This document shows positions 741 through 5,958 of a stretch of DNA of 6,821 bases, in pieces. The notes under the pieces were generated by a model. It was not told where the DNA came from. It was given only the letters and a program-made list of their open reading frames with translations, and made no database searches. This stretch comes from an uncultured archaeon. GTDB lineage: Archaea; Iainarchaeota; Iainarchaeia; Iainarchaeales; CSSED10-239. Each line of letters begins with the position of its first letter. Within the stretch, counting starts at the first letter, position 1. The position numbers and the translations under genes were made by a program. Where the stretch lies: NCBI GenBank assembly GCA_964463155.1, contig CAYXAY010000037.1, positions 1-6,821 of the forward strand, read 5' to 3'.

Positions 741-1688
741 ATGAAAACAATAATTTTTTATCATAATGATCTTGATGGCTTATCTTCGGCTTTAGGTTTT
801 GTATATAATGATTATTTAGATAGATTTTCTAAAATTATTCCTACCTATAAAAAATTAAAAAAACATTATTATTTTTATGAAGTCCATTATGGAATGGATA
901 ATATTTTTGAAATATTAGAAAAAAATAACATAGATATAAATAGATTTGAAAGGGCCATAGTTTTAGACTATAGTTTTAGTAAAGAGACAATGTCTAAATT
1001 CTTAACTGTTTTTAAAAAAAAATTTGTGTGGATTGACCACCATAAAAATATTATTTCTGAAATGTCCGATTTAGAAATTGAAGGATTAAGAGATATTAAT
1101 CATTCATCAAGTGTTTTAGTTTGGAAATATTTTAATACAGAACCAACTTTGTTTTCACAATATATTCAAGACATGGATCTATGGACTTGGCAATTACCAG
1201 ATTCAAAAGATGTCTTGCAATATATCGATTTTTTATATCTTCAAATTTATGATAAAGATAAAGATCGTGAATTTGAAATAATTAATGAGTATTTAAAACT
1301 ATTCAACGATGATTATTTTAAAGAGTGTTTCCCAATATTTAAAGAATATGGAAAATTAATGAATACATATATTAACACAAAAGTAAAAGATGATGTTTCT
1401 ACTGGAAAGGTAATAGTATTTGATGGAATAAAAACTTATGTTGTTAATTCTCAGTTTAAAGCAGGATATATTTCAGAATATATTTTTAATTCCGAATTTT
1501 ATAAAGATATAGAAATGATAATTGTTTGGTATAGATATTATACAAAAGGACAAACGCAAAAAGATTTTGATAAAATAAGTCTAAGATCAAAAAATATTGA
1601 TTGTTCAATTATTGCTAAAAAATACGGCGGAAATGGGCATCCCAAATCTAGTGGATTTATTTGTGATGATTTTTCAAAGTTAATTTAG
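741..1688 (+). CDS. DHH/DHHA1-family phosphoesterase, stand-alone NrnB/COG2404-like (oligoribonuclease or cyclic-nucleotide phosphodiesterase type)
   Basis: All DHH-superfamily motifs appear in the canonical order. Motif I is FYHNDLDG (762-779). Motif II is VLDYS. Motif III is WIDHHKN, with DHH encoded at 1035-1043 as gac cac cat. Motif IV is DMDLW. The DHHA1 signature GGNGHPKSSGF lies near the C-terminus (GGNGH at 1626-1640). Size is 315 aa with no extra sensor or TM domains. Confidence 0.85.
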   Translation: MKTIIFYHNDLDGLSSALGFVYNDYLDRFSKIIPTYKKLKKHYYFYEVHYGMDNIFEILEKNNIDINRFERAIVLDYSFSKETMSKFLTVFKKKFVWIDHHKNIISEMSDLEIEGLRDINHSSSVLVWKYFNTEPTLFSQYIQDMDLWTWQLPDSKDVLQYIDFLYLQIYDKDKDREFEIINEYLKLFNDDYFKECFPIFKEYGKLMNTYINTKVKDDVSTGKVIVFDGIKTYVVNSQFKAGYISEYIFNSEFYKDIEMIIVWYRYYTKGQTQKDFDKISLRSKNIDCSIIAKKYGGNGHPKSSGFICDDFSKLI

Positions 1689-1743: not shown

Positions 1744-3117
1744 ATGGACGAAAAATATGATGTAATATTTATTGGTGCTGGACCTGCTGGAATTTTTGGA
1801 GCTTATGAACTTTCTACGAATAATCCTCAATTAAAAATTTTATTAATAGACAAAGGACAACTTGTAGAAAATAGACAAAAAACAGATGTCATGACTGGTT
1901 TTGGGGGGGCTGGAACTTTTTCTGATGGCAAACTTCATTTTACTCCGGTTTTAAGTCATGAAAAATTGTTTCATCTTTATACAATATCAGAATATCAAGA
2001 CTATTTAAACTATGTTGAAAAATTATTTTTAAATTTTGGAGTTCCTGCAGAATACTATCCAAAAGATCTTAAGAAAACCCAAGAATTGGTTGATCTTTCT
2101 CAAAAGCATAACATAAAATTATTTATAAGAAAAACAATACATGTAGGAACGGACAAACTTCCGGCAGTAATAAAGAAATTTCAAGATTATTTAATTGAGA
2201 AAAATGTAATATTATTACCGAATACAGAAGTTTTGGATTTATTAGTTAAAGATAATATTATTCACGGAGTAATTCTTGCCGATGGAACCGAAATTAAATC
2301 TAAATATGTTGTTTGTGCACCAGGAAGATATAATTCTTCGTGGATTGAAAAGATTTCATTAAAGCACAATCTTGAAAAAATGTATGAAAAAATAGAAGTG
2401 GGGGTAAGGGTTGAATTCCCAGCAGCTTTAATTGAAGAACACGCAGAATTAATGTATGAAACTGTTTATTTGATGTATTCCAAAACATATGATGATGTTG
2501 TTAGAACTTTTTGTCCTTGTCCTCGCGGATATGTTGCAACAGAAGAATATGATGATTTTGTTTGTGTTAATGGGCATAGTAATCATAGCTTAGATGGGAA
2601 AAATTCAAATTTTGCTTTGGTTACAGAAGTAAAGTTAACAGAACCTTTAGAAAATACAAGACTTTTTGCAAACTTTGTGGCCCAAGGTGCAACATTAGTT
2701 GGTGGTGGGAAACCAATTGTTCAAAGAGTTAAAGATTTAAAAGTTGGAAGAAGAAGTACATATTCAAGACTTCAACACGCACACATTACTCCATCTTTAA
2801 AAGAAGCTATTCCTGGTGACATTGGTCTTGCTCTACCATATAGAATTACAAAAAATCTAATAGAAGGAATAGAGCTGCTTGATAAGATTTTTCCAGGTCT
2901 TGATGGAGATTCCACATTTCTTTATGCCCCGGAGGTAAAATTTAGATCTACAAAGATTAAAACAAACAAACATTTAGAAACACATATTAATAATCTTTAT
3001 ATGGCAGGGGACGGTGCGGGGGTTTCTGGAAACATTGTTGGAGCAGCAATAACAGGAATAATTGCAGCAGAAGGAATTTTAGAAAAAGAAAAACGAAAAT
3101 CAATTAAATTATTTTAA
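1744..3117 (+). CDS. FAD-dependent dehydrogenase/oxidoreductase, COG2509-like (function uncharacterised)
   Basis: The N-terminus carries a Rossmann dinucleotide-binding motif, DVIFIGAGPAGIFGAYEL (GAGPAG at 1774-1791). The motifs GFGGAGTFSDGKL and FCPCPRGYV match those I recall as characteristic of the uncharacterised FAD-dependent dehydrogenase family COG2509. The C-terminal MAGDGAGVSGNIVGAAITG is a typical second FAD-contact motif. Size is 457 aa. Confidence 0.85.
   Translation: MDEKYDVIFIGAGPAGIFGAYELSTNNPQLKILLIDKGQLVENRQKTDVMTGFGGAGTFSDGKLHFTPVLSHEKLFHLYTISEYQDYLNYVEKLFLNFGVPAEYYPKDLKKTQELVDLSQKHNIKLFIRKTIHVGTDKLPAVIKKFQDYLIEKNVILLPNTEVLDLLVKDNIIHGVILADGTEIKSKYVVCAPGRYNSSWIEKISLKHNLEKMYEKIEVGVRVEFPAALIEEHAELMYETVYLMYSKTYDDVVRTFCPCPRGYVATEEYDDFVCVNGHSNHSLDGKNSNFALVTEVKLTEPLENTRLFANFVAQGATLVGGGKPIVQRVKDLKVGRRSTYSRLQHAHITPSLKEAIPGDIGLALPYRITKNLIEGIELLDKIFPGLDGDSTFLYAPEVKFRSTKIKTNKHLETHINNLYMAGDGAGVSGNIVGAAITGIIAAEGILEKEKRKSIKLF
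3083..3099 (-). terminator. Oligo-T tracts downstream of the GGDEF-like gene stop, embedded in the last codons of the FAD-dehydrogenase gene
   Basis: Plus-strand agaaaaagaaaaacgaaaat (3081-3100) reads attttcgtttttctttttct on the minus strand, giving T4, T5 and T5 runs within 30 nt of the minus-strand stop (3109-3111). Confidence 0.3.
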
Positions 3118-3741
3118 TCTTTTTTGATATTCATAACAATAAGTAATATATCTATCCGCAATTTGTTTTAAATATTTCCTATTACAAGAAAGATCAATAA
3201 TAAATTCATCACCGGCCGCATCATTTTTTCTATTATTTAATAAATCGTTACTATTTAGCATGTCTTTTTCTTTTCGATCCTTTGAGTTTCTTATATTTTT
3301 AGATAGTGCTTTTCCTATTGCTTCAAGATATCTATCAACAGTCTCATATCCATATTTTTTATTTAAATAGTGCATAGAATCGGCATCAAATAAAAAGATA
3401 AATCTATTTTTAATATTATATTTTTTTGTTTTTTCTAATCTTTTCTTTTCAATATAATATCCTAATTTATTTAGTAATTTAGTTTTAGGATCTCTTTTTA
3501 ATATTTCTAAATCTTTGAGTGCATTAGGAAAATTAGATAATTTTTTTTCAAGTCTTATATATGCATTAATAATTTCAGATGGAATAATATTTATATATTT
3601 AAGTTTTGGTCCGTTGTAAATTTCTACATTAAATTTTTTGTGTTTGTATTTGTTTTTCTTTGCAATTTTTAAAGCTTCTTCGGCTTCTAAAAGATTGTGT
3701 CCAATTCCAACACTTAATTTTATTAAAACCTTTTCATTCAT
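3109..3741 (-). CDS. Minimal stand-alone GGDEF-like nucleotide cyclase (AGDEF active-site variant), apparently circularly permuted; 210 aa
   Basis: Motif-level match to the GGDEF domain. DPKTKLLN (aa 84-91, 3469-3492) matches D-x-L-T-G-L-x-N. FIFLFDADSMHYLNKKYGY (aa 114-132) matches hhhh-D-x-D-x-F-K-x-h-N-D-x-Y-G-H. ETVDRYLEAIGKAL matches xxGDxxLxxvAxxL. AAGDEFIIDL matches GGDEFaill (AGDEF at 3202-3216, plus-strand aaattcatcaccggc, which is gcc ggt gat gaa ttt on the minus strand). The normally C-terminal element vtvSiGvA...AD-ALY-AK-GRN is instead matched at the N-terminus, LIKLSVGIGHNLLEAEEALKIAKKNK (aa 6-30). The CDS itself is well supported: it is a clean ORF with a consensus TATA box 23-30 nt upstream of the ATG. 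The functional call rests on by-eye motif recognition only. Confidence 0.6.
   Translation of the reverse strand: MNEKVLIKLSVGIGHNLLEAEEALKIAKKNKYKHKKFNVEIYNGPKLKYINIIPSEIINAYIRLEKKLSNFPNALKDLEILKRDPKTKLLNKLGYYIEKKRLEKTKKYNIKNRFIFLFDADSMHYLNKKYGYETVDRYLEAIGKALSKNIRNSKDRKEKDMLNSNDLLNNRKNDAAGDEFIIDLSCNRKYLKQIADRYITYCYEYQKRLK
3118..3125 (+). terminator. T6 tract immediately downstream of the FAD-dehydrogenase stop, embedded in the 3' end of the convergent gene
   Basis: The sequence after the TAA at 3115-3117 is tcttttttg, with the T run at 3120-3125. Confidence 0.35.
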
Positions 3742-3763: not shown

Positions 3764-3771
3764 TATATAAA
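3764..3771 (-). promoter_or_regulatory. Archaeal-type TATA box (TTTATATA on minus strand) positioned for a leaderless transcript of the GGDEF-like gene
   Basis: Plus-strand tatataaa at 3764-3771 reads TTTATATA on the minus strand, 23-30 nt upstream of the A of the ATG (3741). This is the spacing expected if transcription starts at or next to the start codon. No Shine-Dalgarno motif lies between the box and the ATG, unlike the neighbouring genes. Confidence 0.5.
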
Positions 3772-3819: not shown

Positions 3820-5007
3820 TTATATAAACCCTCTTACAATAACGATAGGAGTATTAGCATCAGCACTCCCAGAAACTAAGTCTGCAAGACTTGCTACAAG
3901 ATTTCTTACCTTTCTTGGTGTTGTTCCTTCACAAGATATCTTACCTTTGTCTGTGCTGCATTTGATTTTGTTTTTTTCCTTTTCAATTTCTTTTTCTATC
4001 TGTTTTTTGGTTTTGCCTTCATTAAGAAGTTTTTGCATCAAGTATTTTGTTTTAACACCAACCCTTCTTATTTTTTCAATGCCGGGAGTTACTCCAAAAG
4101 CACATACAGGATCAGCAAGCTCGTAGATTCCCGATTCTGGGTCTTTGTAAGCACCATCGCCATATACCATGACCTCAATGTTTTTTTTGAATTCTTTTTT
4201 AATCATTCTTTGGATGTCAAGACAAACCTTGTCAGCACCTCTTGGTGGAAGTTTCAATATCCCTTTTTCAGGATCAAGAATATTAGACCCCAAAAGACCA
4301 TACTCTGAATATGCTTTTTTATTTTTGTCTGAACAGATATCCTGTAAGGTTATTGTGTTTTTTAAATGTGGTTTAATTTCTTCAATAATTTTTTTTCTTC
4401 CATGAATGTTTGAGACAATTATTCCAGTGGGCTTCTGTTTCAAGATGTATGTTGTTTGATTTGAAAGATAGATTTCTGCTTTTGCTTTTTGTTTCTTAAT
4501 AATGTCTTCATAAAACGTGATATAGTCTATTCCGGTCTCTGGATGTTTGAATCTTTCTTTTCCTATTTTCTCTAAAGTTATCTTATCTTCAAGTTTGATT
4601 TTTTTATTTTTTAAAAATTTAGTCGAAATTATTTGGTTCCCTTCTTCGTCTGCAGGAAAAGACAATTGAACAACTACCTTGCCTTTTGGCACACAACTAG
4701 CTATTGCTTGAAGTATTAAAGAAAATCTGTTTCTGGAAGTTATTGGAAAGATTACTCCAATTGTGGAGTTGTCTTTTAGTTTAAGTTTAGAAATTACTTC
4801 GGTTTTAATGTCATCAACACTAACAAAGTTATTTTGTGTTATTGCAGTCACCGCTTCCTTTACGCAAACAATGTCTCCATTACCAATCAAGTTTTTGTTT
4901 TTCTTAAATGTGTTTTTGATAACTTCAATTAAATTATCCTTTGGTATTATGATGCCTGTCTTTATACCGTATGCAATTACTCCTATATTTTCTTTTTTAT
5001 ATTTCAT
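3820..5007 (-). CDS. CofE-like protein (F420-0:gamma-glutamyl ligase family, PF01996/COG1478-like), long form with insertions; substrate unknown
   Basis: Three regions match CofE signatures. NGDIVCVKEAVTAITQ corresponds to GD-h-hVh-S-K-hhSKAEGR. GSNILDPEKGILKLPPRGADKVCLDIQRMI...IEVMVYGDGAYKD corresponds to NAGID-SN...LLLP-DPD-SA-L...GVIITDT-GR. The C-terminal VASLADLVSGSADANTPIVIVRGF (IVIVRGF at 3826-3846) corresponds to ADEhAAAA-LhMG...PhVhhRG. A GAGGA Shine-Dalgarno motif lies on the minus strand (plus-strand tcctc, 5017-5021), 9 nt upstream of the ATG at 5007. At 395 aa it is much longer than the ~250-aa canonical CofE. Confidence 0.75.
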   Translation of the reverse strand: MKYKKENIGVIAYGIKTGIIIPKDNLIEVIKNTFKKNKNLIGNGDIVCVKEAVTAITQNNFVSVDDIKTEVISKLKLKDNSTIGVIFPITSRNRFSLILQAIASCVPKGKVVVQLSFPADEEGNQIISTKFLKNKKIKLEDKITLEKIGKERFKHPETGIDYITFYEDIIKKQKAKAEIYLSNQTTYILKQKPTGIIVSNIHGRKKIIEEIKPHLKNTITLQDICSDKNKKAYSEYGLLGSNILDPEKGILKLPPRGADKVCLDIQRMIKKEFKKNIEVMVYGDGAYKDPESGIYELADPVCAFGVTPGIEKIRRVGVKTKYLMQKLLNEGKTKKQIEKEIEKEKNKIKCSTDKGKISCEGTTPRKVRNLVASLADLVSGSADANTPIVIVRGFI

Positions 5008-5108: not shown

Positions 5109-5582
5109 ATGGTATTATACAAATATTGTCCAAAATGTTATTCTTTAAATGTTGTTATTGAACCAGGAACTATGAATCACAAATGTAAACAATGTGGTTT
5201 TGTAGGAGTTATTGCTCAAGACAGCATTGATAAAATAAATGTTATGAAAAAGTCAAAGGATACTCAAAGATCTTCCGCATCTTATCAAGGTTCAATATCT
5301 AATCTAAGAACTGGCAGTCTAGGAAATGACTGTGAGGTTATGATAAAAAAAGACGACCCCTTCAATGATGAAATTGAAGCAATAGATGCTCCTCAAGGAA
5401 ACTATTCAGATAAGGATTTTGAAGATAAAGAAGACAAACTAGAATCTAGACAATCAAACATCATGAAAAAAAGAGCAGCACCAGCAAACAACCTTCCATC
5501 ATATGGTCTTTCTAAGAAAGACAATCGTTCAGTAAAGGAAAGACTAAAGGAAAGAGGTGGAAAAGACTGGGGTCTTTTGTAA
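5109..5582 (+). CDS. Zinc-ribbon protein with long disordered Ser/Asp/Glu/Lys-rich C-terminal tail (157 aa), function unknown
   Basis: The N-terminus has CPKC (5127-5138) and CKQC (5184-5195) spaced 15 residues apart, the classic C4 zinc ribbon arrangement. The remaining ~120 aa are low-complexity and charged. A GGTGA Shine-Dalgarno motif at 5098-5102 lies 6 nt upstream of the ATG at 5109. The antisense ORF 5402-5650 is judged spurious. Confidence 0.65.
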   Translation: MVLYKYCPKCYSLNVVIEPGTMNHKCKQCGFVGVIAQDSIDKINVMKKSKDTQRSSASYQGSISNLRTGSLGNDCEVMIKKDDPFNDEIEAIDAPQGNYSDKDFEDKEDKLESRQSNIMKKRAAPANNLPSYGLSKKDNRSVKERLKERGGKDWGLL

Positions 5583-5655
5583 ATTGGAGGAAACATATCT
5601 GAAAAAGAAAACAAACAGTAAACACAATAAGTAATTAATACTTTGGGCATTATTG

Positions 5656-5714
5656 GCTTTAGTTATTTAGTTAATATTAATTAAGGTTATTGCCAGAGGT
5701 AATGCAACTAAAGC
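5656..5714 (+). other. Candidate structured RNA element: 9-bp outer stem enclosing two small internal hairpins
   Basis: The segment gctttagtt (5656-5664) is the exact reverse complement of aactaaagc (5706-5714). The 41-nt interior contains the palindrome ttaatattaa and a short hairpin attgcc-aga-ggtaat (6 bp including one G-U pair). It lies in a ~250-nt stretch with no credible ORF. The strand is not determinable. Confidence 0.25.
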
Positions 5715-5833
5715 AATAAGTAATCAAGCACATAATCAAAAACAACAATTAAGCTAATAACCCGGATACCTGCTATTTAAAGTTTCATTTAAATTGTCAT
5801 TGTTGAGATAACGAATATTGTAATAATAGAGAA

Positions 5834-5929
5834 ATGAGAGGAACAAAAAGTTCAATAAATTCACACACCCTTTGTGAAATTTGTGGTATTAATACTGGTT
5901 ATAGAGGCACATTTTCAATAATGGATTAA
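5834..5929 (+). CDS. 31-codon mini-ORF (MRGTKSSINSHTLCEICGINTGYRGTFSIMD) with eL37-like N-terminus; possibly a remnant or non-coding
   Basis: ATG at 5834 and TAA at 5927-5929. The pattern M-x-G-T-x-S-S...H-T-L-C-x-x-C-G resembles the N-terminus of ribosomal protein eL37 ([23 protein letters not shown]). It lacks the basic residues and the second CxxC pair, and no other frame supplies them. There is no convincing Shine-Dalgarno motif. Confidence 0.2.
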   Translation: MRGTKSSINSHTLCEICGINTGYRGTFSIMD

Positions 5930-5958
5930 ATAATTTAATCTTTAAAGATTAAATTATT
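5929..5958. repeat. Perfect 30-bp palindrome (15-bp arms, no spacer) between convergent 3' ends; candidate bidirectional terminator hairpin
   Basis: The arm aataatttaatcttt (5929-5943) is the exact reverse complement of aaagattaaattatt (5944-5958). The palindrome overlaps the last base of the mini-ORF stop and the TAA of the Endo IV gene (5954-5956). A T-rich run follows on the plus strand. Confidence 0.5.

What the first reader, a model, noticed from the sequence alone, without database searches (positions are those of the whole stretch)
3109..3741. Stand-alone, apparently circularly permuted GGDEF-like nucleotide cyclase (AGDEF) in an archaeal-looking genome
The 210-aa ORF at the window centre carries the full GGDEF motif set, but in a rotated order. 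Residues 84-184 read like the N-terminal two-thirds of a GGDEF domain. They contain DPKTKLLN (the DxLTGLxN helix), FLFDADSMHYLNKKYGY (the metal-binding hDxDxFKxxNDxYGH block), VDRYLEAIGKAL (GDxxLxxvAxxL) and AAGDEFIIDL (the GGDEF beta-hairpin). The protein then ends one helix later. The missing final element, strand vtvSiGvA plus helix AD-ALY-AK-GRN, is instead recognisable at the extreme N-terminus as LIKLSVGIGHNLLEAEEALKIAKKNK. Residues known to matter in PleD/WspR-type cyclases are retained: the first Asp of DxD and the Glu of GDEF (metal), the Asn of the FKxxND block and the Asp of GDxxL (guanine reading), and the Lys of the AK motif (phosphate). This argues for an active enzyme rather than a decayed domain. 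A/S-GDEF variants of the GG[D/E]EF motif have been reported active in bacteria. There is no sensor, receiver or TM domain and no canonically spaced RxxD I-site. A ~15-residue Lys/Asn/Asp-rich insertion precedes the AGDEF hairpin. I know of no described circularly permuted GGDEF family, and GGDEF signalling is nearly unknown in archaea. If confirmed, this would be a new architecture of the palm-fold cyclases (GGDEF / Cas10 palm / class III cyclase).
Basis: partly seen in the sequence, partly recalled or inferred. Interest (0 to 1): 0.88.

Follow-up and report, generated by a model that had tools for sequence, protein, structure and literature searches.

The report
Circularly permuted GGDEF enzyme in archaea
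This 210-residue archaeal protein is a GGDEF-type nucleotide cyclase domain whose last strand-helix-strand has moved to the front of the chain; it belongs to a conserved, apparently undescribed family of such rearranged enzymes in tiny (DPANN) archaea, where this kind of signalling has hardly been studied.

Summary
The ORF (3109..3741, minus strand, 210 aa) and every quoted motif are real. Pfam GGDEF matches residues 83-153 above threshold but covers only the first half of the model. The N-terminal block (residues 5-44) maps to the C-terminal strand-helix-strand of canonical GGDEF domains in HMM, profile-profile and PDB-sequence comparisons. Moving it to the C-terminus turns a 108-column match into one continuous 155-column match; reversed and shuffled controls do not. 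Two AlphaFold models (pTM 0.81 and 0.75) show the rotated element order, and their structural matches are almost exclusively diguanylate cyclases. At least 70 cluster representatives share this order. Their best-conserved residues include the catalytic ones (D119, N127, R171, G177-D178-E179-F180, K28). One close relative, P0079, has the canonical order. Named relatives are all from DPANN archaea. There is no sensor domain, no canonically spaced I-site and no conserved neighbour. The most likely function is a stand-alone, dimerising dinucleotide cyclase, probably making c-di-GMP. Enzyme activity, product and a permutation-aware 3-D superposition remain untested. The proteins are already auto-named "diguanylate cyclase", but I found no description of the permutation. 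Verdict: a new variant of a known kind.

The parts
3109..3741 (-). Complete gene for the 210-aa circularly permuted GGDEF protein, stop codon included at 3109-3111. Its last 9 bases overlap the 3' end of the convergent FAD-dependent gene (1744..3117).
   Evidence: ORF list; 100% identical database protein P0001 on a 6821-bp NCBI contig; family alignments.
3610..3729 (-). Residues 5-44, the relocated C-terminal module of the GGDEF fold. It consists of a strand (LIKLSVGIG, E9-14), a helix (LLEAEEALKIAKKNK, H17-29, carrying the invariant phosphate-binding Lys28 of the 'AK' motif) and a strand (FNVEIY, E38-41).
   Evidence: It aligns to canonical GGDEF profile positions 133-176 of 204 and to the AD.ALY.AK helix of solved DGCs 5m3c, 4zmm, 7e6g and 4zve. 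pLDDT is 93-95. G12, I13, G14, A20, A23, A27 and K28 are conserved in 65-70 of 70 members.
3493..3609 (-). Residues 45-83, a linker with two helices (H55-67, H72-80) that joins the old C-terminus to the old N-terminus. It occupies the place of the stalk (signalling) helix that precedes canonical GGDEF domains and is a candidate dimerisation element.
   Evidence: Model secondary structure. The longer Foldseek alignments (147-162 columns) are mostly to DGCs that include the stalk or coiled coil: SiaD, WspR, GCN4-WspR, DgcB and the phytochrome-DGC. The dimerisation role is inferred.
3292..3492 (-). Residues 84-150, the first half of the GGDEF domain. It contains DPKTKLLN (alpha0); the strand with metal-binding D119 (FDADSMH); N127 and D136, which are the guanine-reading positions; and helix VDRYLEAIGKAL.
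   Evidence: Pfam PF00990 matches residues 83-153 to model positions 3-73 at 28.7 bits. The hhalign pairing lines up with DiD.FK.iND.yGH..GD. D119 and N127 are present in 70 of 70 members.
3244..3291 (-). Residues 151-166, a low-complexity Lys/Asn/Asp-rich insertion of variable length across the family. It is flanked by conserved R151 and D166, which align with the R and D of the canonical RxxD I-site, so the I-site spacing is destroyed.
   Evidence: pLDDT is below 50 at 151-161. R151 is present in 68 of 70 and D166 in 66 of 70 members. The same region is disordered and longer in P0025.
3112..3243 (-). Residues 167-210: strand E168-171 with invariant R171, a hairpin lengthened by 3 residues, the A176-G177-D178-E179-F180 signature, strand E179-185 and the final helix H188-207. 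The new C-terminus lies where canonical domains continue into the variable loop before the next strand.
   Evidence: R171, D178 and E179 are conserved in 70 of 70, G177 in 69 of 70 and F180 in 66 of 70 members.
3764..3771 (-). TTTATATA, 30 to 23 nt upstream of the ATG. This is a possible archaeal TATA box for a leaderless transcript, which would give the gene its own promoter inside the 78-bp gap after the CofE-like gene. The evidence is weak.
   Evidence: Sequence read. The element sits at the same position in the closest relative L008, but conservation is unclear in more distant loci. The region is about 22% G+C, so chance occurrence is likely.

Best explanation
The gene encodes a stand-alone GGDEF-fold nucleotide cyclase whose chain is circularly permuted. 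The canonical last three elements (strand 'SxGxG', helix 'A[D/E]xALxxAK', final strand) now form residues 5-44. A two-helix linker (45-83) follows. The rest of the domain then runs from DPxTxLLN to the helix after the AGDEF hairpin (84-210). The folded domain should therefore have the same active site as PleD/WspR-type diguanylate cyclases. By that analogy, D119 and D178/E179 hold Mg2+, N127 and D136 read the guanine, and R171 and K28 (from the relocated helix) hold the phosphates. The proposed mechanism follows. Two copies associate, probably through the internal helical linker that replaces the canonical stalk. In lineages with tandem paralogues they may form heterodimers. Each copy binds one GTP, and the pair condenses them into a cyclic dinucleotide, most probably c-di-GMP. 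With no sensor domain and a broken RxxD I-site, control would come from expression level or a protein partner, not from a fused sensor or product inhibition. Shown here: the permuted order, its conservation, the retention of catalytic residues, the GGDEF-like predicted fold and the DPANN-archaeal distribution. Inferred: the exact 3-D placement of the N-block, dimerisation through the linker, catalytic activity and the identity of the product. My split confidence is about 0.9 for the permuted GGDEF fold, about 0.6 for an active NTP-condensing enzyme and about 0.45 for c-di-GMP as the product.
For: Pfam GGDEF scores above its gathering cut-off but covers only model positions 3-73.

Moving residues 2-44 to the C-terminus raises the Pfam score from 28.7 to 35.9 bits and adds a second stretch. 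Reversed, shuffled and truncated controls stay at 28.0-28.4 bits. The mCpol and GdpP-GGDEF hits then run from the GDEF hairpin through the relocated block.

A local canonical-GGDEF HMM gives 65.8 bits for the native sequence (model positions 5-109) and 78.9 bits for the de-permuted one (positions 5-157 in a single domain).

With hhalign (70-member family against 69 canonical domains), the native order gives 108 columns plus a separate hit placing the N-block at template 133-177. The de-permuted order gives one 155-column hit (score 168.2 against 148.4, E = 3.5e-26). The reversed control gives 108 columns. The N-block alone gives P = 4.9e-5, and 198 of 200 shuffles score 18.0 or less against 27.6.

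In 13 canonical GGDEF proteins the N-block lands just downstream of the main match and never upstream on its own. In the tandem GGDEF-GGDEF proteins P0128 and P0164, one native-order match crosses the domain junction. The same mapping appears in solved DGC sequences.

The AlphaFold model of the window protein has pLDDT 83.7 and pTM 0.81, five strands, and the order beta-alpha-beta / linker / alpha-beta-alpha-beta-beta-alpha. The N-block has pLDDT 93-95. All top 50 Foldseek PDB hits are GGDEF-domain structures (nearly all diguanylate cyclases); isolated GGDEF domains align over about 123 columns at rmsd about 3.5 A with TMt about 0.5, which is what a sequential aligner should give if a quarter of the domain is permuted. 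The distant member P0025 replicates this.

At least 70 cluster representatives share the order. G12, G14, D119, N127, R171, D178 and E179 are present in 70 of 70, G177 in 69 of 70 and K28 in 67 of 70.

P0079 has the canonical order yet scores 119 bits on the de-permuted family HMM against 43.6 bits on the canonical HMM.

An AGDEF variant is an experimentally active DGC (PMC3974145), and some family members carry a true GGDEF motif. A canonical, intact GAF-GGDEF protein is encoded on the same Pacearchaeota contig as family member P0024.
Against: There is no biochemical evidence for any member.

It does not rest on a permutation-aware superposition.

Several residues differ from the canonical consensus: His124 replaces the Lys of 'FK', Tyr132 replaces the His of 'GH', three residues are inserted between R171 and the signature, and there is no clear equivalent of the second phosphate-binding Arg of 'AKxxGRN'. 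Any of these could change or abolish the chemistry.

Isolated GGDEF domains without a dimerisation module are often poorly active, and dimerisation through the linker is only an inference.

No EAL, HD-GYP or PilZ gene was seen on the contigs examined, and no partner gene is conserved next to the family.

c-di-GMP has never been demonstrated in an archaeon, and it was not detected in Haloferax or Sulfolobus (PMC8646023).
Confidence: 0.6

Rival explanations
1. The protein has the permuted GGDEF fold but a different chemistry. It could make another nucleotide signal (3',3'-cGAMP, c-di-AMP, linear pppNpN, or cyclic oligonucleotides as Cas10 and mCpol do), or it could merely hydrolyse NTPs as the GdpP GGDEF-like domain does.
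For: The N-block resembles the C-terminus of mCpol both in Pfam and in solved mCpol structures (9mnr, whole-sequence E = 8.9e-4; 9nwn). A GdpP-type GGDEF hit appears after de-permutation (16 bits). The Lys of 'FK' is His here, and the hairpin is 3 residues longer. The guanine-reading Asp position (D136) varies among D, N, T and S across subfamilies. From my own knowledge, such variation accompanies relaxed base specificity in Hypr GGDEF enzymes.
Against: The window protein itself keeps both guanine-reading residues, N127 and D136. The mCpol and GdpP scores are below their cut-offs (19.2 against 26.4; 16 against 30), whereas GGDEF is above its cut-off. All 50 top structural matches are GGDEF-domain structures. 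There are no PADLOC hits and no CARF, effector or other defence-type neighbours.
Confidence: 0.22
2. It is a catalytically dead GGDEF-like domain that acts as a nucleotide-binding receptor or protein-interaction module, as many degenerate bacterial GGDEF domains do.
For: The motif is AGDEF, not GGDEF. There is no recognisable dimerisation or sensor domain. Several consensus residues are replaced.
Against: The most strongly conserved positions across 70 diverse members include the catalytic and substrate-binding ones: D119, N127, R171, G177-D178-E179-F180 and K28. Degenerate receptor-type GGDEF domains typically lose these. AGDEF is active in VCA0965 (PMC3974145). The canonical RxxD site that receptor-type domains use to bind c-di-GMP is the element disrupted here.
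Confidence: 0.12
3. It is not a permutation. On this reading it is a C-terminally truncated GGDEF remnant with an unrelated N-terminal extension, or the arrangement is an artefact of gene calling or assembly (for example, mis-split tandem genes).
For: Each placement of the N-block on a single canonical protein is individually weak, with domain E-values of 0.01-9. Tandem copies exist in some relatives. Pfam on the native sequence sees only half a domain.
Against: The start and stop are at equivalent positions in at least 70 representatives from many samples, including a single-cell genome. In the window the gene is flanked by unrelated genes with no GGDEF fragment nearby. The N-block is the most confident part of two models and among the best-conserved parts of the family. 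Profile-profile and de-permutation tests with controls all point to the GGDEF C-terminus.
Confidence: 0.04

Closest known systems
Canonical GGDEF diguanylate cyclase domains (Pfam PF00990; PleD, WspR, DgcZ, SiaD, T. maritima TM1788)
   Same: The predicted fold is the same, and all top structural matches are of this kind. The motif set is the same: DxLTGLxN, the metal-binding Asp, the guanine-reading Asn and Asp, Rx..[G/A]GDEF, SxGxG and the AK helix. It is above the Pfam cut-off. An AGDEF variant is known to be active (PMC3974145).
   Different: The chain order is rotated: the last beta-alpha-beta is N-terminal, and the new termini lie in the loop between helix alpha3 and strand beta4. The former stalk is an internal linker. 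There is no fused sensor or receiver domain. The RxxD I-site is split by a 14-residue disordered insertion. His replaces the 'FK' Lys and Tyr replaces the 'GH' His. Three residues are inserted in the hairpin. The hosts are DPANN archaea, not bacteria.
P0079, a canonical-order relative from a JGI metagenome (L007:1802-2578)
   Same: It shares the family's idiosyncrasies: DGDxxHxxN, GYxxVD, the short SVGxG-to-EA..AL..AK link and the GDE[FY] hairpin preceded by RxNGS. It scores 119 bits on the de-permuted family profile against 43.6 bits on a canonical GGDEF profile.
   Different: The SVGVG...ALMKAK block is at the C-terminus, which is the canonical order. It is a singleton on one 3.5-kb contig. 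It lies 24 bp downstream of a RelA/SpoT-like gene. Whether it is basal to the permuted clade or nested within it is unresolved.
Minimal CRISPR polymerase (mCpol, PF18182; Panoptes OptS, PDB 9mnr) and Cas10 palm domains
   Same: These are small stand-alone palm-fold nucleotide cyclases. The N-block resembles the mCpol C-terminal strand-helix.
   Different: Scores are below the Pfam cut-off (13.5-19.2 against 26.4). The order is not permuted in mCpol. There is no defence-system context and no PADLOC hit. The guanine-reading residues typical of GGDEF are present.
Other circularly permuted catalytic domains: cpGTPases (YqeH, RsgA), the permuted HD domain fused to Cas10, and permuted palm motifs in permutotetravirus and birnavirus RdRps
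   Same: They set a precedent that nucleotide-handling folds, including palm-fold polymerases, tolerate permutation with activity retained (PMC7825114, PMC3150331 and PMC4666646, seen).
   Different: They are different folds or families. None is a GGDEF or class III cyclase-type domain. Searches of the held library for a permuted GGDEF or diguanylate cyclase found nothing.

Membership tests
GGDEF domain / diguanylate cyclase (PF00990) | Significant match to the family profile | tested here: met
   PF00990 scores 28.7 bits against a gathering cut-off of 23.8 (E = 1.3e-6), but only over model positions 3-73 of 161. After de-permutation it scores 35.9 bits in two stretches. hhalign probability against canonical domains is 99.5-99.7%.
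GGDEF domain / diguanylate cyclase (PF00990) | All secondary-structure elements of the domain present in the canonical N-to-C order (alpha0-alpha1-beta1-alpha2-beta2-beta3-alpha3-beta4-alpha4-beta5) | tested here: not met
   All elements are present, but the order is beta4-alpha4-beta5 / linker / alpha0...alpha3. This is the defining difference, so it is a permuted variant and not an ordinary member.
GGDEF domain / diguanylate cyclase (PF00990) | GG[D/E]EF signature hairpin | tested here: met
   The window protein has A176-G177-D178-E179-F180. D178 and E179 are present in 70 of 70, G177 in 69 of 70 and F180 in 66 of 70 members. The first position varies (A, G, S, T, N), and several members have GGDEF. 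AGDEF is active in VCA0965 (PMC3974145).
GGDEF domain / diguanylate cyclase (PF00990) | Metal-binding Asp at the end of beta1 (PleD D327 equivalent; numbering from my own knowledge) | tested here: met
   D119 aligns with the first Asp of DiD.FK and is present in 70 of 70 members.
GGDEF domain / diguanylate cyclase (PF00990) | Guanine-reading Asn and Asp (PleD N335 and D344 equivalents) | tested here: met
   N127 is present in 70 of 70 members. D136 is present in the window protein and most members, but is N, T or S in some subfamilies.
GGDEF domain / diguanylate cyclase (PF00990) | Phosphate-binding residues: the Arg before the signature and Lys/Arg on the AKxxGRN helix | tested here: inconclusive
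   R171 (70 of 70) aligns with the Arg before the signature, but 3 residues are inserted. K28 (67 of 70) aligns with the AK Lys. There is no clear equivalent of the GRN Arg; K31 is a possible substitute.
GGDEF domain / diguanylate cyclase (PF00990) | RxxD inhibitory site five residues upstream of the signature (common in the family but not universal) | tested here: not met
   R151 and D166 align with the I-site R and D but are separated by a 14-residue disordered insertion. R171-K-N-D174 is only one residue from the signature.
GGDEF domain / diguanylate cyclase (PF00990) | Synthesis of c-di-GMP from 2 GTP by a dimer | not testable with these tools
   This needs biochemistry. Dimerisation through residues 55-80 is inferred only from the position of the linker and from Foldseek alignments to stalk-containing DGCs.
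Circularly permuted variant of a domain (general criteria) | Two segments match the parent profile in swapped order, and rejoining them gives one continuous, better-scoring alignment while controls do not | tested here: met
Circularly permuted variant of a domain (general criteria) | Permuted order conserved across a family, with a relative in the parental order | tested here: met
   At least 70 representatives have the permuted order. P0079 has the canonical order.
Circularly permuted variant of a domain (general criteria) | Permutation-aware 3-D superposition places the relocated segment in its original spatial position | not testable with these tools
   Model coordinates are not exposed. 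Indirect support only: five DSSP strands as in GGDEF, pTM 0.81, N-block pLDDT 93-95, and sequential Foldseek alignments covering about three quarters of the target domains.
mCpol / Cas10-type palm cyclase in a defence system | Profile match above threshold and association with CARF or effector genes or a CRISPR or defence context | tested here: not met
   PF18182 scores 13.5 bits (native) and 19.2 bits (de-permuted) against a cut-off of 26.4. There are no PADLOC hits and no such neighbours.

The most novel reading that the evidence does not exclude
This family is a DPANN-archaeal invention. It is a circularly permuted, sensor-less GGDEF cyclase that is catalytically active and supplies a cyclic dinucleotide second messenger (c-di-GMP or a relative) in Nanoarchaeota, Woesearchaeota and Pacearchaeota. 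It arose by duplication and fusion or fission of a canonical gene, with P0079 and the tandem paralogues as relics of that process. The permutation frees the stalk from an upstream sensor, so the enzyme would be controlled in a new way, by expression, heterodimerisation of paralogues or a partner protein. That would make nucleotide second-messenger signalling in host-dependent archaea directly testable.
Probability: 0.35. Interest if true: 0.78.

Novelty: new variant of a known kind. Interest (0 to 1): 0.62.

Why it matters
GGDEF domains are among the most abundant bacterial signalling enzymes, and their architecture (sensor, stalk, then cyclase) underlies every current model of how they are switched on. 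A conserved family in which the chain is rotated, the stalk is internal and no sensor is attached would be the first natural circular permutant of this fold that I could find described. It offers a natural experiment on how dimerisation and regulation work. It also places an apparently intact cyclic-dinucleotide synthase in DPANN archaea. These are organisms with tiny genomes and host-dependent lifestyles, in a domain of life where c-di-GMP has never been shown. A simple expression and LC-MS experiment could therefore settle whether such signalling exists there. On the practical side, domain-based annotation currently sees only half a domain, and Pfam and NCBIfam models would need a permuted model to capture the family properly.

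Tried and rejected
- **Conserved gene neighbourhood.** The order AP-endonuclease / Zn-ribbon / CofE-like / cpGGDEF / FAD-dependent / DHH-like is shared only by relatives at 55% identity or more. It is absent from members at 44% or less, and those loci share no neighbours with one another either. I therefore rejected an operon-level link to the CofE-like, FAD-dependent or DHH-like genes.
- **Defence-system membership.** There were no PADLOC hits for the protein or five neighbouring gene products.
- **RNA elements.** The window has no Rfam family at gathering score and no tRNA. Bacterial-type promoter and terminator scans were at or below the shuffle expectation.
- **Archaeal TATA-like element.** It is present upstream but clearly shared only with the closest relative, so I kept it as a weak hint only.
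- **Genome scan with the diverse alignment A2.** The scan was repeated with A1, which biases the taxonomic picture towards close relatives.
- **Taxonomy of the most divergent subfamilies.** The cluster look-up returned no organism names, and the P0053 contig context is not diagnostic. Restriction of the whole family to archaea is therefore not established.
- **Direction of the permutation.** A first tree script timed out. A faster neighbour-joining analysis placed P0079 inside the permuted clade in 21 of 40 bootstraps, with some saturated distances, so this is unresolved.
- **P0079 relatives.** A homology search found only P0079 itself.
- **Shuffle null for hhalign.** Two of 200 shuffles gave impossible scores of about 133 over 5-17 columns. 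I treated these as a numerical artefact and report them as such.
- **GTP cyclohydrolase III.** I considered this archaeal palm-like enzyme of flavin and F420 biosynthesis because of the CofE-like neighbour. No profile hit supports it.
- **Literature.** Searches for a permuted GGDEF or diguanylate cyclase returned only unrelated uses of the term.

Full report
**1. The observation**

Pfam's GGDEF model matches above its gathering score (28.7 against 23.8 bits). It covers only residues 83-153, which correspond to model positions 3-73 of 161. Residues 6-31 give a faint hit to the C-terminal end of the minimal CRISPR polymerase model. NCBIfam gives only sub-threshold partial hits to diguanylate cyclase models over the same residues. 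phmmer against PDB sequences finds GGDEF domains. In 4urs and 4urg a second, very weak stretch pairs query 20-41 with the last helix of the domain.

**2. The family**

A word-indexed search found 25 proteins of 178-265 aa. The full-length ones cover the whole query, and some are auto-named 'diguanylate cyclase [archaeon]' or 'GGDEF domain-containing protein [Candidatus Pacearchaeota archaeon]'. An exhaustive profile search of 1.84 billion cluster representatives gave 71 hits at E ≤ 1e-10. Most of these are 200-280 aa and span nearly the full profile.

After filtering, 70 full-length sequences have the N-block first. Their most conserved positions are:
- G12, I13, G14, A20, A23, A27 and K28 in the N-block;
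- D84, T87 and G94 in the first helix;
- D119, N127, G131, V135 and G143;
- R151, D166 and R171;
- G177-D178-E179-F180, plus R197, Y203 and Q206.

The first signature position varies (A, G, S, T, N), and several members have a true GGDEF.

**3. Is it a circular permutation? Sequence tests**

(a) Rejoining by hand. Moving residues 2-44 to the C-terminus raises the Pfam GGDEF score to 35.9 bits with two stretches. Reversed, shuffled and deleted controls stay at 28.0-28.4 bits. The mCpol and GdpP-GGDEF hits then extend from the GDEF hairpin through the relocated block. With a local HMM of 69 canonical domains, the native protein scores 65.8 bits over model positions 5-109. The de-permuted protein scores 78.9 bits as one domain over positions 5-157.

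(b) Profile-profile comparison with hhalign:

| Arrangement | Result against canonical GGDEF profile (204 positions) |
|---|---|
| Native family | 108-column hit (template 11-119, score 148.4) plus a separate hit placing the N-block at template 133-177 |
| De-permuted | One 155-column hit, template 11-176, score 168.2, E = 3.5e-26 |
| Reversed control | 108 columns, score 148.6 |
| N-block alone | Template 133-176, P = 4.9e-5 |
| N-block reversed | P = 0.013 |
| N-block shuffled | P = 0.24 |

In 200 column shuffles, 198 scored 18.0 or less against 27.6 observed. Two gave impossible scores of about 133 over 5-17 columns, which I treat as a program artefact.

(c) Reverse direction. The family HMM run on canonical proteins places its N-terminal block just downstream of the main match in 13 cases and never upstream on its own. 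In two tandem GGDEF-GGDEF proteins, one native-order match runs across the junction between the domains. The same mapping is seen on the sequences of solved DGCs 5m3c, 4zmm, 7e6g and 4zve.

(d) A canonical-order relative. P0079 (258 aa) has the family's peculiar features but carries ISVGVGYTFEQANEALMKAKDIK at its C-terminus. It scores 119 bits as a single domain on the de-permuted family HMM and 43.6 bits on the canonical GGDEF HMM. On the native-order family HMM it splits into two swapped pieces. It is a cleanly called gene on a 3.5-kb contig with no second copy beside it. It is a singleton, and its position as basal or nested is unresolved.

**4. Structure**

AlphaFold2 with the 22-sequence alignment gives mean pLDDT 83.7 and pTM 0.81. 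The elements are E9-14, H17-29, E38-41, H55-67, H72-80, H92-104, E113-120, H123-130, H132-148, E168-171, E179-185 and H188-207. The only disordered stretch is 151-161, and the N-block has the highest confidence. That makes five strands, as in a GGDEF domain, in rotated order.

All 50 best Foldseek matches in the PDB are GGDEF-domain structures, nearly all diguanylate cyclases. Isolated domains align over about 120-125 columns at about 3.5 Å with target-normalised TM about 0.5. That is roughly three quarters of the target, as expected for a sequential aligner faced with a permutation. Most of the longer alignments (147-162 columns) are to structures that include the stalk or coiled coil preceding the domain.

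A second model for the 34%-identical P0025 (pLDDT 77.9, pTM 0.75) has the same order, and its top 26 hits are again GGDEF domains. I could not run a permutation-aware superposition because model coordinates are not exposed. The exact 3-D placement of the N-block is therefore inferred.

**5. Active site**

From the hhalign pairing, with PleD numbering taken from my own knowledge:

| Window residue | Canonical equivalent |
|---|---|
| D119 | Metal-binding Asp (D327) |
| H124 | Replaces the 'FK' Lys (K332) |
| N127 | N335 (guanine) |
| Y132 | Replaces H340 |
| D136 | D344 (guanine) |
| R171 | R366, with a 3-residue insertion before the signature |
| A176-G177-D178-E179-F180 | GGEEF |
| K28 | K442 |

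R151 and D166 align with the R and D of the RxxD I-site but are separated by the 14-residue insertion, so a canonical I-site is absent. AGDEF is a proven active variant (PMC3974145). Conservation falls on the catalytic positions, which argues for an enzyme and against a degenerate receptor domain.

**6. Host and context**

All named relatives come from archaeal MAGs or SAGs:
- unclassified 'archaeon' bins (84-61% identity, same gene order);
- a Nanoarchaeota single-cell genome;
- two Woesearchaeota MAGs;
- a MAG labelled Methanosarcinales;
- Pacearchaeota.

The window's gene order is kept only among relatives at 55% identity or more. One lineage has a tandem duplicate (P0021 and P0012). More distant members sit in unrelated contexts with no recurring partner. 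No defence signature was found. One Pacearchaeota contig also encodes an intact canonical GAF-GGDEF. The taxonomy of the most divergent subfamilies could not be established.

**7. Literature**

Full-text searches for a permuted GGDEF or diguanylate cyclase returned nothing relevant. Galperin et al. 2018 state that, among finished genomes, GGDEF response regulators are absent from archaea and that only one archaeal GGDEF domain was then known (PMC5847659). A 2021 paper notes more than 300 BLAST hits in archaea, many of them in Asgard and DPANN, and failed to detect c-di-GMP in Haloferax and Sulfolobus (PMC8646023). Permutation of other nucleotide-handling folds, including viral palm polymerases, is known.

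**8. Verdict**

This is a conserved family of circularly permuted, stand-alone GGDEF-fold proteins in DPANN archaea with an intact-looking active site. The most likely mechanism is a homodimeric (or paralogue-heterodimeric) dinucleotide cyclase making c-di-GMP, regulated by something other than a fused sensor or a canonical I-site. Activity, product, oligomeric state and the 3-D placement of the N-block remain to be shown.

It is a new variant of a known kind, not a new kind of system. Its interest is substantial for c-di-GMP and archaeal-signalling specialists and moderate in general.

Noticed in passing
window 3820-5007 (minus strand): The co-directional upstream neighbour is a 395-aa homologue of F420-0:gamma-glutamyl ligase (PF01996, E = 1.9e-35), spread over residues 14-393 against a 218-position model, so it carries about 170 extra residues. 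Its NCBIfam CofE scores (about 29 bits) are far below the equivalog cut-offs (180-274). A GTP-dependent CofE-like enzyme in a DPANN-type genome is unlikely to serve F420 biosynthesis. Its function is unknown.
   Followed up: partly
window 741-1688 (plus strand): A 315-aa protein has a sub-threshold DHH hit (22.8 against 28.1 bits) and a weak match to the C-terminus of NrnA. In bacteria, DHH/DHHA1 enzymes degrade pGpG, pApA and c-di-AMP. It lies two genes from the cyclase, but the linkage holds only in close relatives.
   Followed up: partly
L001:9211-9861 and 10001-10660 (also L002, L003, L010): There is a tandem duplication of the permuted gene (P0021 and P0012, 55% and 66% identical to the window protein) in one lineage, between the CofE-like and FAD-dependent genes. 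The two could form heterodimers, and they are the kind of substrate from which duplication-fusion could regenerate the canonical order.
   Followed up: partly
L007:836-1777 and 1802-2578: The single canonical-order relative (P0079) lies 24 bp downstream of a 313-aa RelA/SpoT-like (alarmone synthetase-type) gene. This pairs two nucleotide second-messenger enzymes. The next gene downstream looks ScpA-like.
   Followed up: partly
L004:14590-15618 (minus strand): A canonical GAF-GGDEF protein with all catalytic motifs intact (RYGGEEF, FDLDFFKHYNDTFGH, ALYKAKQSGRN) lies about 4 kb from the permuted family member P0024 on a Pacearchaeota contig. Both forms therefore coexist in one DPANN genome.
   Followed up: partly
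window 3244-3291 (residues 151-166) and the family alignment: R151 and D166 are conserved (68 and 66 of 70) and align with the R and D of the canonical RxxD inhibitory site, but an insertion of about 8-40 disordered residues, variable in length, separates them. Whether they still form a c-di-GMP-binding site in 3-D is unknown.
   Followed up: no
Family alignment, column of window residue D136: The guanine-reading Asp is replaced by Asn, Thr or Ser in several divergent subfamilies (for example P0043, P0047, P0051, P0061, P0066, P0072, P0093). From my own knowledge, Ser/Thr at this position in Hypr GGDEF enzymes goes with ATP acceptance and cGAMP synthesis, so product specificity may differ within the family.
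   Followed up: no
window 5109-5582 (plus strand): A 157-aa protein has an N-terminal C4 zinc ribbon with weak similarity to TFS/TFIIB ribbons (E = 0.0016-0.0085), followed by a long charged, probably disordered tail. It is conserved in the syntenic relatives (48-56% identity).
   Followed up: no
window 3109-3117: The cyclase gene and the convergent FAD-dependent gene (1744..3117; PF21688 FAD-depend_C) overlap by 9 bp at their 3' ends. No terminator-like structure was found between or around them.
   Followed up: partly
L005:11964-13520 and L015:7295-8848: An archaeal helicase (Helicase_C + HTH_61 + Helicase_dom4_arc) lies 0.6-1.2 kb downstream of the permuted gene, on the opposite strand, in two distant loci (P0025-type, about 33-34% identity to the window protein). 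This is probably lineage collinearity, but it is the only neighbour seen twice among distant members.
   Followed up: no
window 5583-5953: A 370-bp gap between two convergent genes has no ORF of 40 aa or more confined to it and no Rfam or tRNA hit. Syntenic relatives (L001) have an extra 85-aa gene in the corresponding interval.
   Followed up: partly
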